Source: the human T2T-CHM13v2.0 reference genome, Homo sapiens
Assembly (NCBI RefSeq): GCF_009914755.1
Contig: NC_060926.1
Direction: 5' to 3' (one strand)
Length of the DNA stretch: 64,000 bases
Position numbers and translations under genes: made by a program. The notes below the pieces were generated by a model, which was not told where the DNA came from, ran no database searches, and was given only the letters and a program-made list of their open reading frames with translations. Below, piece after piece: positions 12,611 through 38,784 of the stretch. Within the stretch, counting starts at the first letter, position 1. Each line of letters opens with the position of its first letter.

Positions 12611-13821
12611 TTCAGTAAAAATATATAACGGAGAAGTGAGTTTGGCTTCTTGGAAAATGTTAATTCTCTAAGACATAATGAGAATATTTTATCAAAGTAA
12701 AAAATTTAGATTTGCTTTACTTCCAATATATAAGCTACCTATCCACTGGAGCATGGTCTAAAAGTGACATTGTTGAAGTACAAGGAATTATTTCTACAGG
12801 ATAAGTTTGTTTTCGTTTTTTGGGTGTATGTAAGTCCTACTGGGGAATTTATCTTTAAATAATATTATAGATCCTGTATAAAGTGAATTTTTTAAATTCT
12901 GAAAATGACTGCATTTAGAAGACACAAACATTTACAAAGAAAAAATATCTTACTCAAAGAACAATATAATATTAATCTTGGTCCAAAAGAACATAAGAAT
13001 ATAATCTTATTAAAATGTCAAAAGAGCCTTCTGCTTATTAGTGGAAAAATCCTATCAGTACTTACAATCTTTAAGGACATGCTGTTTTTAGTGAAGTCAA
13101 GAGCAAGTCTTTCTTTCACTTTTTAATACATTAAAAGTCACAGGCTTTTTATAAATTTAACTCTCAAGCTTACTAGCAGTCATTTGCAGCTCATTTCTGT
13201 TAGATTCAATTTATCTTTTAATTAGGAAACCAGAGCCATTTCTGAATACTCCTGAAATTAATGAAAGACTCTTTTTTTTCTATAATGCTGCATACCTGTT
13301 TGAAGGTATACATTTGTGCAACAAGAGAGTAATGAACATCTGATAATGCAGTACTATCGGGGTATTCATCTGAGGCTTCTATAATGCATCAAAACTATTT
13401 TGCTTTATTAAATTATTTTGTATATCTCAAAGACTGCATATTACAGAGTTCCACTGACTATGCAGAAATCAAACTCACTTATTCTTTTCATCCATAGATC
13501 CTCATAACATGTTGTTTTAAATATTTTAATAAAGCACTTCTAACAATTTTTGTAGTTGTCCAAGGTGAGTGAGTATGATGGAAGTCAATTAAAGTTTTTT
13601 TTTTTACAAATGGGAAGCAAAATTTCATAGTAGCTTGTATAAGAAATGATTTGATTTGTACTCCAATTTGAAAATTGAAATTTAAGATATTACTAAAAAT
13701 TTATCATTTAACAAAATTCTGGTTATAACTGCAACTCTTTAATTATTAAAATAAATAAAGACTGAATCAAATGTTGATTGGGATTTTTGTTATATAAAAT
13801 TTTTATGACAAAATTGTTAGG

Positions 13822-14080
13822 TGCTAAATGCAATGCTGTAGCCTGGATTTGATCCTAGAAGAGAAAAAGGACATTCGTGGAGAAAAATCAGTGAAATCTG
13901 AATACAATCGGGGGTGTAGTTAATAGTAATATACCAATGTCAGTTTCTTAGTTTTGACAAATATACCATGGTAATTTAAGATGTTAACATTGGAGAAAAC
14001 TAGATAAGGGATAGGCAGGAACTCTGTATTATCTTTGCACTATAAATCTAAAATTATTCTAAAATAAAATTTATTAAAAA
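13822..14080 (+). mobile_element. L1M 3'-end fragment
   Basis: AATGCAATG..CCTGGATTTGATCCTAGAA...GGAACTCTGTATTATCTTTGCA...TCTAAAATAAAA. Confidence 0.75.
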
Positions 14081-14975
14081 TTATTAGATGACCTGATATG
14101 ATATTCTTCATTCAGTTTAGCAGCACAGTCATAAAGAGATTCATCTCTGCAGAAATATGTGAAGGCTGTACCAATTTTCCCAAGAGCCTCTCTTAATCCC
14201 CTGAAACACAAATCTTCCTTTCTTGAAAGCACACAATCCTTGTCATAATCCTCGTAGATTTTCTCTTCTTTAACAGTAACTGCTCTTGAGTCTGCCATAT
14301 CCTCACTGTCTATGACTTTCCATTTTGTCCATCACTTTGCTCAATTAAATGAAGTCTAACATCCTTTGCAATATTTATGATTGCACTTCGTAGTCAATAT
14401 GTGCTCCCCACCCCTTCTCATAGCACTTGAAAGGAAAATGCCTGTTAAAAGATGATAGACTCTAGAGTGAAGATGGGAGAGAAGTTGGAGGGCAGGCTAA
14501 TTTTCTAAGTAGTCAGTTTTTTTTTTTTTAACAAAATGGCCTACATAACCTTATAACTATAGGAACACCGGTAATATTTGGAAGGCAAAGAACCTTATGT
14601 TTCTACTTTTCCTGTAATATAAATATATAAAGAATTGAAGAAATAAAGCAGCTAATGAGAATTGGCAGCCAATTAAAAAAGAAAAAAGACTCAAGAAAGA
14701 TGCAAACAAGAGGCACAAACTATGTACAGAGATTTTCTTCCTTCTGTGGAGCACTGTGTCATAAGAAAGACTCCCAGAAACAGATGACAAAAATGGCCAA
14801 CTTTCAATCTTCCCATAGTTATGTTTCCATAGAAGGCAGGGATGTACATAAACCTACACTCAGGCCTAAGGGAAGTTCAACACAGGCCCTTACCCAGTTA
14901 TAATGTGATCATTCTGATACCTTTATGTTTGTTTTTTCAGGCTATCCAAAAGGGAAGAACACAGAAACCCAGGCT

Positions 14976-15015
14976 AAAGTGCTGGGATTACAGGCGTGAG
15001 CCATTATGCTTGGCC
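14976..15015 (-). mobile_element. Alu 5' stub (first ~40 nt only); left inversion breakpoint
   Basis: Reverse complement is GGCCAAGCATAATGGCTCACGCCTGTAATCCCAGCACTTT, then Alu similarity ends abruptly. Confidence 0.9.
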
Positions 15016-35947: not shown

Positions 35948-36264
35948 GCCAGGTGCAGTGATTCACGCCTGTAATCCCAGCACTTTGGGAGACCAAGGTG
36001 GGTGGATCACCTGAGGTCAGGAGTTCAATATCAGCCTGGCCAACATGGTGAAACCCTGTCTCTACTAAAAATAAAAAAAAATAAATAAATAAAAAATTAG
36101 CTAGGCATGGTGCCGGGCACCTATAATCCCAGCTACTTGAGAGGCTGAGGCAGGAAAATCACTTGAACCCAGGAGGCAGAGGTTGCAGTGAGCTGAGATC
36201 ACTCCATTGCACTCTAGCCTGGGCAACAAAACTGAAACTCCATCTCAAAAAAAAAAAAAAAAAA
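35948..36264 (+). mobile_element. Alu (AluS-like)
   Basis: TSD AAAATCTATCCATCA on both sides. Confidence 0.96.
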
Positions 36265-36712
36265 ATCTATCCATCAGTCAGTAGACCAGTGATTATTTTC
36301 AGTGATCAAGCACAGATAAGTTTGTCTTCCAGGGCCTCATCTAAAACTACCTGAACCTTAAGATCCCTTTAAGCTATAAAATTCTGAGGCTCTGGGATTT
36401 CTCATTCTAAAATCTCCTCCAGCATATCTAACCAGTCTGATTTTTAGTCATGCCTCCTACCAATCAACCAAGATTTGAAATACTTTTGTATGTGTTTGGG
36501 CCTGTGTAAAAATTGGCCCATGTTCAGATGATGTGGTCCATCTGCAAATTAAGGAATGAGACAGGCCGAGGAAAAGAGAATATTTTGGTTCATGGCTTAA
36601 GGATAATTAAATCAATTTTTAAACCATTTTTTATTTAGTTTAAAAGCAATGAGCTTTACCTACATGTGTGTGAAATGTAATAATGTATCCATTAAGTAAA
36701 TACAAACATATA

Positions 36713-37040
36713 GGCTGGGTGTGGAGACTCACACCTGTAATCCCAGCACTTTGGGAGGCCAAGGCGGGCAGATCACCTGCGGTCAGGAGTTTGAGACCAG
36801 CCTGGCCAACATGGTAAAACCCCGCCTCTACTAAAAATACAAAAATTAGCTGGGCGTGGTGGCAGGTGCCTGTAATCCCAGTGACTCAGGAGGCTGAGGC
36901 AGGAGAATCGATTGAATCCAGGAGGCGGAGGTTGCAGTGAGCCGAGATGGTGCCACTGCACTCCAGCCTGAGTTACAGAGTGAGACTCCATCTCAAAAAC
37001 AAAACAAAACAAAACAAAAATAAACAAAAAAAAACAAGAA
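36713..37040 (+). mobile_element. Alu (AluS-like)
   Basis: Full dimer with (AAAAC)n tail. Confidence 0.96.
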
Positions 37041-38784
37041 AACTAACAAACATACACACAAGGATATTTATTGCTGTGCTTTTATTATAGTAAAATACTA
37101 AAAATTAATTAAATGTTCACCCAAAGACAGTTTTTTTTAAATGAGTGACACAATTCCAGACTAAGGTTGAAAGATCCCCGAGATATTCTGTAAACTGAAA
37201 AAAGCTAGATCCAGGACAATGGATATCTTTACGTGCATGAGGAAAAAAATGTGTTTTTATAACATATTTTATCCAGTTCTGAGCCAATTTCTTGCAATTT
37301 CTTATAATAATTTCTTACAATTTCTTACACATTCTTATAATAAATTTATACACATACACACACATTTAGCTATTGATTCTATTTTTCTAGGGAACCCTGA
37401 CTAATATAGGTAGTTCATACAAAAGCCCATCACACAGTGGTATTAACAAGTGTTCAGTAAGTGGTTCTGCGGTTAAGGCTAGCTTCTTGTAACCTCAGGC
37501 ATTCCTTGATTTGTACATTCATCGCTCCAATCTTCCATCTTTACATGAGTATTTTCTCCCTGTGTGTCTTCACATTATCTTCCTTCTGTGCATGTCTATC
37601 TCTATGTCTGAATTTCCCTTTTTTATGAGGACATCAGTCACGCTGAATAGGGCCTAGCCTATGCCCTCATTTTAAATGGACTGCCCTTTTCCTATTAAGT
37701 TGCATGACCCTATTTCCAAGCAGTTACCACATTCTGAGGTAACTGTGGGTTTGAACTTCAACATCTATTTAGGGGGACACAAATCAATCTATTACATGAT
37801 CCAATGACAGCATCCAGGGAAGACAAAAACCTGAGAAAGGGTTGGGAGCCAGCAGCCACAGGCAGAATTACTACATTAGTCATCATGCTGTAGATTGCAT
37901 TTCATTAGAGAGTTAGGGTTTGGCGGGGAATGGAGGCAGCTAGATATGAGCACCTCCTTTCATCTTTGTTTCTAGCCAAGGAAACCAACTGCAATTCTGA
38001 AGAACACAAAGGGAAGCACTCCAAAACATACTGCAAAATACCTATTCCCTAAGGCCAATGCAGTTGGCCTGTGCTGTACTGAAACTAAAATGAAAAGAAA
38101 AAGTAGTGGAAAATGCAACTTTGTACTTATTTTTCTCCAGTCCCAAGGGTATAATGAAAACAGACACTTTCAGCTCAAGATTTTGCTGCCAGGATTCTAG
38201 CCGGATTTCTCACAATGCCCTAGCCAACTATACGTTCATTAATTATTGGGAATCCAAGCTCCAAAGGAGGGATTTTCACAACCCATTCAGATCCCATCAG
38301 CATCCAAATCTTCCTAGAGGGGATATTTGCTGATTTTATTTCATCCAATTGACTATCCTGGTTGGAGCCCTTAAGTATGCATCACTTAGATATTACTCAC
38401 TCAGAGTTTCATTAAGGACCAAAGAAAGCCATCCAAACACATTCTGAAGCAATAGCCAGATCTGCTGAGCCCTAAAGCAAGGAAAATTCTGGCCTTTCAT
38501 GCTTAAGATTCTCTTCTTGGCAACCATCTTTAAAGACAGAGCATCTTTAAATGGTCTGTCAGACAAGCCCTTGATGCTGTTCATGTTTATATTTGTGAGA
38601 TTACTTGTGAGGTGGGAGTGGAAGGAAGAAGGTAAAGATGAAGGCAAAAAAGGTGAGATACACTGGGGAGGTGAAGGTGGAGATGAGTGGATTGACACCC
38701 TGACAGATGGTAATCAATGGCCTTGATTACACACAATGACCACTGTGAGGGTAAATTCAGAAGTAAAAATAATAATTCCTCCTT

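What the first reader, a model, noticed from the sequence alone, without database searches (positions are those of the whole stretch)
13120..38400. Recurrent ultra-short (41-58 nt) predicted introns in the dead gene
Seen with GT..AG at both ends: 13252-13295 (-, 44 nt, GTATGC..TTTCAG); 21227-21269 (+, 43 nt, GTAAGA..ATCAG); 38358-38400 (-, 43 nt, GTGAGT..ACCAG); 37997-38041 (-, 45 nt, GTATTT..CTTCAG); 38079-38126 (-, 48 nt, weak donor); 24716-24773 (+, 58 nt, GTAAGT..TGCAG). Two more have decayed acceptors: 13120-13173 (54 nt) and 16169-16209 (41 nt). Established: mammalian introns under about 65-70 nt are very rare. Inference: clustering at 43-45 nt is hard to explain by random deletion after gene death. 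Either the ancestral gene had atypically compact introns (unusual splicing, or origin from a short-intron genome or mobile element), or these boundaries are mispredicted.
Basis: partly seen in the sequence, partly recalled or inferred. Interest (0 to 1): 0.75.

Follow-up and report, generated by a model that had tools for sequence, protein, structure and literature searches.

The report
Chance GT–AG pairs, not introns
The supposed ultra-short introns are ordinary chance GT…AG pairs scattered over both strands of non-coding human DNA with no dead gene around them, so the finding is not a real feature.

Summary
The six listed GT..AG intervals exist exactly as written, and the two "decayed" ones have GT but no AG. 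They carry no signal. The region 13120-38400 holds 3183 GT..AG intervals of 41-58 nt on its two strands. Dinucleotide shuffles give 3183 +/- 52. On a consensus-match score, five of the six claims are matched or beaten by 38 to 1205 other intervals, and the best by 13. Shuffles give the same counts. Four of eight lengths falling in one 3-nt bin has P = 0.33. The intervals lie on both strands, so they cannot belong to one gene. No dead gene was detected: Pfam found nothing in any of the six frames read through stops. The same method found both annotated pseudogenes elsewhere in the window. All eight intervals are AT-rich, whereas 12 of the 22 published conserved human ultra-short introns are G-rich (PMC4463651). 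Around 38 kb, unnamed ORFs from related DNA in public assemblies align straight through all three claimed introns. Those ORFs look spurious: no Pfam family, pLDDT 0.28. Verdict: not a real feature.

The parts
13252..13295 (-). Claimed 44-nt intron. This is the best-looking of the set and lies in DNA with no annotated gene.
   Evidence: GT..AG confirmed. Donor 7/9 and acceptor 11/14 consensus matches. 13 of 3192 intervals score at least as high on the sum, against 11.5 +/- 3.9 in shuffles. The only YTNAY motifs put the A 6 or 10 nt from the 3' end.
13120..13173 (-). Claimed 54-nt 'decayed' intron. It has GT at the start but no AG at the end.
   Evidence: it ends in a run of A. It is 76% A+T.
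16169..16209 (+). Claimed 41-nt 'decayed' intron. GT is on the + strand only and there is no AG.
   Evidence: It is 80% A+T with no YTNAY motif.
21227..21269 (+). Claimed 43-nt intron on the + strand, in DNA with no annotated gene.
   Evidence: GT..AG confirmed. Donor 5/9 and acceptor 7/14. 1205 of 3192 intervals score at least as high on the sum. No YTNAY motif.
24716..24773 (+). Claimed 58-nt intron on the + strand, antisense to the last exon (22990-29769, -) of lncRNA LOC105374789.
   Evidence: GT..AG confirmed. Donor 7/9 and acceptor 9/14. 98 of 3192 intervals score at least as high on the sum. The exon position comes from the hub's annotation table.
37997..38400 (-). Cluster of three claimed introns (38358-38400, 38079-38126, 37997-38041). 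They lie inside the 10.8-kb intron (29770-40610) of lncRNA LOC105374789, on its strand.
   Evidence: GT..AG confirmed. 781, 442 and 38 of 3192 intervals score at least as high on the sum. 26 minus-strand GT..AG intervals of 41-58 nt lie in this 404-nt stretch. All three reading frames carry stops in the 150-nt flanks.
37966..38961 (-). Single-copy non-coding stretch that has related DNA in unnamed public contigs. Four ORFs called on those contigs (P0001, P0002, P0004, P0005) align to it collinearly, running through the claimed introns.
   Evidence: The DNA and the two flanking ORFs tested here match only themselves in the human genome.
22990..46157 (-). Annotated lncRNA LOC105374789. Its two real introns served as a positive control for the splice-site score.
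   Evidence: Hub annotation; the introns are 10841 and 4196 nt, with donors 8/9 and 7/9 and acceptors 13/14 and 10/14.
20632..21114 (-). Longest open frame of the region (161 aa). It overlaps a dispersed old repeat and is not a gene.
   Evidence: 5 of 100 shuffles give an ORF at least this long; 39 other places in the human genome match at 38-53% identity, most with stops, and the first look found 553 candidates. No Pfam family.

Best explanation
The eight intervals are chance pairings of the dinucleotides GT and AG in AT-rich, non-coding human DNA. That DNA is intergenic sequence plus the last exon and large first intron of the lncRNA LOC105374789. A reader looking for short GT..AG spans will find about 64 per kb on each strand, so any handful can be picked, at any length between 41 and 58 nt. 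There is no gene, dead or alive, whose exons they would join. Nothing is spliced here beyond the annotated 10.8-kb and 4.2-kb lncRNA introns. Shown: the counts, scores, strand layout, lack of protein-family signal and composition. Inferred: that no RNA uses these sites, since no RNA data could be examined directly.
For: (1) Counts equal chance: 3183 GT..AG intervals of 41-58 nt against 3183.4 +/- 51.6 in 50 shuffles, and 3192 against 3176 +/- 53 in 100 shuffles. (2) Quality equals chance. Intervals scoring at least as high as the best claim number 13, against 11.5 +/- 3.9 in shuffles. The counts at the other cut-offs are 98 against 108.8 +/- 11.3 and 781 against 868.9 +/- 28.6. The 41-58 nt class has the fewest good candidates of the six length classes tried (98, against 108 to 149). 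(3) Length clustering has P = 0.33. (4) The intervals are on both strands in a non-collinear order. (5) No coding signal. None of 123 ORFs of 55 aa or more reaches a Pfam cut-off. None of 12 read-through frame translations covering all six frames has a family at E <= 0.01. The same method recovers PPIAP64 (PF00160, E 7e-19 and 2e-13) and the SMIM30-like pseudogene (PF15873, E 1.6e-14) at 51-60 kb. (6) Three ORFs flanking the claims match only themselves in the human genome. (7) The 150-nt flanks of every claim carry stops in all three frames. (8) Only 1 of the 6 GT..AG intervals has a YTNAY branch motif 18-40 nt from its 3' end. G is the commonest base in 0 of 8 intervals. (9) ORFs from related DNA run through the three 38-kb intervals without a gap and without a consistent drop in identity. 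For P0001 the values are 28, 25 and 60% inside against 47% outside. For P0004 they are 67, 42 and 58% inside against 35% outside. (10) The RNA-seq-based short-intron tables of PMC5435141 show no chr2 entry at 68.07-68.10 Mb.
Against: One loose pattern (GTR ... YYNCAG, 41-58 nt) is about 3 sd above dinucleotide shuffles, 129 against 99.0 +/- 10.1. I attribute this to pyrimidine runs that such shuffles destroy, and that attribution was not tested. The composite score shows no excess. The interval 13252-13295 has a good donor and acceptor (sum 18 of 23), between the two real lncRNA introns (21 and 17). The longest ORF (161 aa) is reached by only 5 of 100 shuffles, but it lies on a repeat. Two related ORFs (P0001, P0004) stay open in one shared frame over 144 aa at 49% identity, which is more than I would expect of random non-coding DNA. 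No RNA data or mammalian genome alignments could be examined. The splice score is a simple consensus count, not a trained model.
Confidence: 0.93

Rival explanations
1. One or more of the intervals is a genuine ultra-short intron removed from a rare, unannotated non-coding transcript. Candidates are an alternative processing product of the LOC105374789 precursor for the three at 38 kb, or an unknown minus-strand RNA for 13252-13295.
For: Hundreds of short introns, a few of them in lncRNAs, were reported from human RNA-seq (PMC5435141: abstract, lncRNA section). Confirmed ultra-short introns can have very poor splice signals (PMC4463651, section 2.5). The three 38-kb intervals are on the transcribed strand of an annotated lncRNA intron (hub table). 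13252-13295 scores 18 of 23.
Against: There is no excess over chance in number, quality or length. There are no entries for this part of chr2 in the supplementary tables of PMC5435141. The hg38 position I searched for was estimated from a recalled gene coordinate. The intervals are AT-rich with no G runs, unlike 12 of the 22 conserved ultra-short introns. Branch motifs are missing or too close to the 3' end in 5 of the 6.
Confidence: 0.02
2. The stretch 37966-38961 (-) is the human relic of an ORF that is intact in some other mammals (P0001, 231 aa). A dead gene would then exist at 38 kb, but the three intervals are former coding sequence, not introns.
For: P0001 aligns collinearly to 38692-37966 with human stops opposite its residues, several opposite W, and with two frame changes. 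P0001 and P0004 share one open frame over 144 aa at 49% identity. The human DNA is single-copy.
Against: The four ORFs begin and end at different places. P0005 is 87% identical to the first 60 residues of P0001, yet it starts 85 residues upstream and stops at about residue 60. P0002 ends where the human ORF ends. No Pfam family. No source gives a name, each has one or two member sequences, and the contigs are only 1.6-4.6 kb. The ESM Atlas model of P0001 has pTM 0.14 and pLDDT 0.28, and its best feature score of 0.81 is at the level shuffled proteins reach. P0001 and P0004 are 4.3 and 5.4% tryptophan, as expected of frames that are open by chance. Only this one stretch of the 25-kb span is concerned.
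Confidence: 0.03
3. A real dead gene spans 13-38 kb but has decayed, or is so lineage-specific, that no family model sees it, and the intervals are its mispredicted or real introns.
For: Pfam does not cover all proteins. A unitary pseudogene of an unknown family would escape.
Against: The intervals are on both strands. RefSeq annotates no pseudogene there (hub table). ORF lengths are within the range of shuffles apart from one ORF that lies on a repeat. The flanking ORFs have no paralogue in the human genome.
Confidence: 0.02

Closest known systems
[quoted passage not shown] I recall the ESRP2 43-nt and NDOR1 49-nt introns as the named examples; section 2.5 also names them.
   Same: The length range is the same (37-65 nt there, 41-58 nt here), with GT-AG ends. 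Some of the published introns also have weak splice and branch signals.
   Different: The published introns lie in expressed, annotated genes. They were chosen for conserved length and sequence, and 15 of 22 have splicing evidence. Twelve of the 22 are G-rich with G runs. Here there is no host gene, no RNA evidence, G is the commonest base in 0 of 8, and only 1 of 8 has a GGG run.
RNA-seq-derived human short introns, including a few in lncRNAs (Abebrese et al. 2017, PMC5435141)
   Same: They are short, often inefficiently spliced spans, some within lncRNAs.
   Different: They are defined by junction reads reproducible across cell lines. Their tables show no chr2 entry at 68.07-68.10 Mb in hg38.
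Decoy or pseudo splice sites in non-coding DNA (a textbook concept, recalled)
   Same: Consensus-like GT and AG sites occur at the density expected from base composition and are not used. That is what searches show here.
   Different: Nothing differs. This is the class I file the finding under.
Processed pseudogenes of this window (PPIAP64 and the SMIM30-like LOC124906018)
   Same: They are the only dead genes the window demonstrably holds (hub table).
   Different: They lie at 51.6 and 59.8-60.3 kb, outside the finding. Their family matches are contiguous on the DNA, so they contain no introns.

Membership tests
Spliceosomal (U2-type) GT-AG intron | GT at the 5' end and AG at the 3' end | tested here: met
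   Met by 6 of 8 intervals. 13120-13173 and 16169-16209 have no AG. The feature is non-specific: 3183 such intervals exist in the region.
Spliceosomal (U2-type) GT-AG intron | Lies between two exons of one transcript, on that transcript's strand | tested here: not met
   The intervals are on both strands. By the hub's RefSeq table, four lie outside any gene, one is antisense to a lncRNA exon, and three lie inside a 10.8-kb lncRNA intron. No exons flank any of them.
Spliceosomal (U2-type) GT-AG intron | Branch-site motif (YTNAY) about 18-40 nt upstream of the 3' splice site, followed by a pyrimidine tract | tested here: not met
   only 24716-24773 among the six GT..AG intervals has the motif at a usable distance (26 nt). 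Three of the six have no motif at all, and two have it only 6-12 nt from the 3' end.
Spliceosomal (U2-type) GT-AG intron | Junction seen in RNA | not testable with these tools
   No RNA-seq data are available here. The only indirect check is that the supplements of PMC5435141 show no entry in this part of chr2.
Conserved human ultra-short introns (PMC4463651) | Sits in an annotated transcript, with length and sequence conserved in related species | tested here: not met
   There is no host transcript exon structure (hub table). The 38-kb intervals are present in related DNA, but as part of uninterrupted similarity, not as a distinct unit.
Conserved human ultra-short introns (PMC4463651) | G-rich with G runs (true of 12 of 22, so typical rather than obligatory) | tested here: not met
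   G is the commonest base in 0 of 8 intervals. One of 8 has a GGG run. G content is 10-24%.
Pseudogene ('dead gene') in 13120-38400 | Recognisable similarity to a protein family or to a parent gene | tested here: not met
   No Pfam families in any of the six frames read through stops. None of 123 ORFs is above a curated cut-off. The control recovers both annotated pseudogenes. Flanking ORFs hit only themselves in the genome. A relic of a family outside Pfam is not excluded.

The most novel reading that the evidence does not exclude
The single-copy stretch at 37966-38961 (-), inside the lncRNA intron, descends from an ORF that is still open over 231 codons in another mammal (P0001) and partly in others. 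A lineage-specific small gene would then have died in the human line. Separately, 13252-13295 (-) could be a genuinely spliced AT-rich 44-nt intron of an unannotated RNA. Neither reading would restore the idea of recurrent 43-45 nt introns in one dead gene.
Probability: 0.04. Interest if true: 0.4.

Novelty: not a real feature. Interest (0 to 1): 0.03.

Why it matters
It matters only as a caution. In AT-rich mammalian non-coding DNA, GT..AG spans of any chosen short length occur about 64 times per kb per strand. A list of them, however consensus-like at the ends, is no evidence of introns without a host transcript, a consistent strand and a comparison with chance. Had it been true, a cluster of 43-45 nt AT-rich introns in a human gene relic would have been unusual, because known human ultra-short introns are few and mostly G-rich (PMC4463651).

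Tried and rejected

I repeated it with stops read as X.

3. A DNA search of the 25 kb against the human genome, to look for a pseudogene parent, was swamped by interspersed repeats. Only 39 of about 39,000 first-look candidates were scored in each half, so it says nothing about parent genes.

4. Rfam gave one match in the window, an SRP/Alu-type hit at 61738-61854. Nothing lies near the finding.

5. Tandem repeats: 10 rows, none overlapping a claimed interval.

6. A literature search for LOC105374789 found one paper, which only lists qRT-PCR primers for it.

7. P0003 (709 aa, E 4.8e-4, eight matched stretches in a repeat protein) was set aside as a low-complexity chance hit. It was left out of the later alignments.

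8. I considered a mobile-element origin of the intervals and rejected it. The 38-kb stretch is single-copy in the genome. None of the eight intervals lies in the long masked stretches of the hub's list.

9. I did not fold P0001 myself, because the ESM Atlas already holds a model of it (pLDDT 0.28).

No dN/dS was therefore computed.
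Full report
**Observation.** I read the sequence at every listed place and checked ends, strand and length by script. These are 13252-13295 (-, 44 nt), 21227-21269 (+, 43), 38358-38400 (-, 43), 37997-38041 (-, 45), 38079-38126 (-, 48) and 24716-24773 (+, 58). The two "decayed" intervals begin with GT: 13120-13173 on the minus strand and 16169-16209 on the plus strand. 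Neither ends in AG. The letters are therefore confirmed.

**Strand layout.** Along the window the order of strands is -, -, +, +, +, -, -, -. One gene cannot have introns on both strands. The hub's RefSeq table lists no gene at 13-22 kb. It lists a lncRNA (LOC105374789, minus strand) whose last exon is 22990-29769 and whose first large intron is 29770-40610. Four intervals are therefore intergenic. One is antisense to a lncRNA exon. Three lie within a 10.8-kb lncRNA intron.

**Is it more than chance?**
- The region 13120-38400 is 34-44% G+C.
- On its two strands it holds 3183 intervals of 41-58 nt that start with GT and end with AG. Fifty dinucleotide-preserving shuffles give 3183.4 +/- 51.6. 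A second run with 20-nt margins gives 3192 against 3176 +/- 53 in 100 shuffles.
- The density is 64 per kb per strand over the whole window. It is the same in the lncRNA exon, the lncRNA intron and the intergenic DNA (62-69 per kb per strand). Twenty-six minus-strand intervals lie inside the 404 nt that hold the three claims at 38 kb.

**Splice-site quality.** I scored each interval by matches to the textbook consensus. The donor was scored against MAG|GTRAGT (9 positions). The acceptor was scored as pyrimidines at -15 to -5, plus YAG, plus G at +1 (maximum 14). No trained model was available.
- The two real lncRNA introns score 8+13 and 7+10.
- The six claims score 7+11, 5+7, 6+7, 6+11, 4+10 and 7+9.
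- The numbers of the 3192 intervals that score at least as high on the sum are 13, 1205, 781, 38, 442 and 98.
- Shuffles give the same numbers at three cut-offs: 13 against 11.5 +/- 3.9, 98 against 108.8 +/- 11.3, and 781 against 868.9 +/- 28.6.
- Among six length classes in the real sequence, 41-58 nt has the fewest good candidates (98, against 108-149 in the others).
- One result goes the other way. The loose pattern GTR...YYNCAG is found 129 times against 99.0 +/- 10.1 in shuffles. I put this down to pyrimidine runs that dinucleotide shuffles break up, but I did not test that.

**Length clustering.** The "clustering at 43-45 nt" is 4 of 8 lengths in one 3-nt bin. With lengths drawn evenly from 41-58 nt, some 3-nt bin holds four or more in 33% of trials.

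**Is there a dead gene?**
- The 150-nt flanks of every interval carry stops in all three frames, whether or not the interval is removed.
- Of 123 stop-to-stop ORFs of 55 aa or more in 12500-39000, none reaches a Pfam curated cut-off. Two have sub-threshold matches at E of about 0.007-0.01, which is roughly what 123 queries give by chance.
- I then read all six frames of 13120-38402 through their stops, with X at each stop, as twelve pieces of about 4200 aa. No family was found at E <= 0.01.
- The same method applied to 51001-61502 finds both annotated pseudogenes. PPIAP64 matches Pro_isomerase positions 2-64 at 59833-60036 in one frame (E 1.9e-13) and positions 70-158 at 60042-60287 in another (E 7.4e-19). 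The SMIM30-like gene matches DUF4730 at 51626-51739 (E 1.6e-14). The test can therefore see dead genes of this age, and it sees none in the finding's span.
- The longest ORF of the region (161 aa, 20632-21114, -) is reached by 5 of 100 shuffles. It overlaps a dispersed old repeat: 39 other places in the human genome match it at 38-53% identity, most with stops.
- A DNA search of the whole span against the genome was swamped by repeats and is uninformative.

**Comparison with real ultra-short introns.** Shimada et al. (PMC4463651; I read the abstract and sections 2.1 and 2.5) place the lower shoulder of human intron lengths at 65 nt. They list 22 conserved introns of 37-65 nt, 15 of them with splicing evidence and 12 G-rich with G runs. 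The eight intervals here are 58-80% A+T. G is the commonest base in none of them, and one has a GGG run. A YTNAY motif at 18-40 nt from the 3' end occurs in only one of the six GT..AG intervals. Abebrese et al. (PMC5435141; I read the abstract, the lncRNA section and the methods passages) derived short introns from RNA-seq aligned to hg38. A search of their four supplementary files for coordinates beginning 6807-6810 showed no chr2 row. The unshown remaining hits lie beyond the chr2 rows. The hg38 position was estimated from a recalled gene coordinate, so this check is weak.

**An unexpected lead, followed up.**
- The 106-aa ORF 38396-38713 (-) ends just inside the claimed donor at 38400. A search against 1.84 billion representative proteins gave three hits. 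P0001 is 231 aa (E 2.4e-12), P0002 is 129 aa (E 4.4e-6), and P0003 is a 709-aa repeat protein that I set aside (E 4.8e-4).
- A second search with P0001 added P0004 (149 aa) and P0005 (150 aa). All of these lack names and Pfam families. Each has one or two member sequences, on contigs of 1.6-4.6 kb.
- By tblastn they align collinearly to window 38961-37966 on the minus strand. The alignments change human frame twice or more. Human stops lie inside most of them (0-7 per aligned piece).
- P0001 runs straight through all three claimed introns.
- Identity inside the three intervals is 28, 25 and 60% against 47% outside for P0001. For P0004 it is 67, 42 and 58% against 35% outside.
- None of the three intervals is missing from either relative. 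Nine bases of 38358-38400 lie opposite a gap in P0001.
- The human stretch is single-copy, so I infer that these ORFs sit on related, probably orthologous, DNA of other organisms, whose identity I did not seek.

**Are these ORFs a real gene?** I think not.
- Their ends disagree. P0005 is 87% identical to the start of P0001, yet it begins 85 residues upstream and stops at about residue 60. P0002 stops where the human ORF stops.
- P0001 and P0004 are 4.3 and 5.4% tryptophan.
- The ESM Atlas model of P0001 has pTM 0.14 and pLDDT 0.28. Its nearest clusters score 0.81, a level that shuffled proteins reach a third of the time.
- On the other side, P0001 and P0004 share one open frame over 144 aa. 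I keep a small probability for a lineage-restricted ORF.

**Verdict.** The letters are there, but the pattern is what base composition gives. No gene was found for the intervals to belong to. The feature is not real. I could not examine RNA-seq junctions or mammalian alignments; the steps are listed under decisive next steps.

Noticed in passing
window 37966-38961 (-): This is a single-copy stretch inside the lncRNA intron. Four unnamed ORFs (P0001 231 aa, P0002 129 aa, P0004 149 aa, P0005 150 aa) from short public contigs align to it collinearly. P0001 and P0004 share one open frame over 144 aa. They are probably chance ORFs on related non-coding DNA, but I could not compute dN/dS.
   Followed up: partly
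window 59833-60287 (+): PPIAP64: the cyclophilin family match is contiguous on the DNA but split over two frames (profile positions 2-64 at 59833-60036, positions 70-158 at 60042-60287). It is therefore an intronless retrocopy with a frameshift near 60036-60042. The RefSeq model adds two tiny upstream 'exons' (5 and 59 nt at 57509-57513 and 58226-58284). The Pfam control found nothing there, so they look like alignment artefacts.
   Followed up: partly
window 51626-51739 (+): The SMIM30-like pseudogene still gives a clear DUF4730 match (E 1.6e-14, profile positions 17-55 of 55) in one frame.
   Followed up: no
window 17452-18069: A dispersed repeat of about 500-600 nt with at least 39 copies at 80-87% identity across the human chromosomes. 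It is not among the long masked stretches of the hub's list. I did not name the family.
   Followed up: no
window 20632-21114 (-): The longest ORF of the region (161 aa) overlaps an old interspersed repeat. 39 other genomic places match it at 38-53% amino-acid identity, and the first look found 553 candidates.
   Followed up: partly
window 61738-61854 (-): The only Rfam match in the window is Metazoa_SRP, 71.6 bits against a gathering score of 70. It lies within a masked stretch (61525-61859). I take it for an Alu-type element; the 7SL origin of Alu is recalled.
   Followed up: no
window 27879-27903 and 31560-31606: Short (TG)n and (CT)n microsatellites in the lncRNA's last exon and first intron.
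   Followed up: no
window 22990-46157 (-): LOC105374789 appears once in the searched literature, as one of the lncRNAs given qRT-PCR primers in a study of influenza-infected cells (PMC10808666; I saw only the primer-table passage).
   Followed up: no
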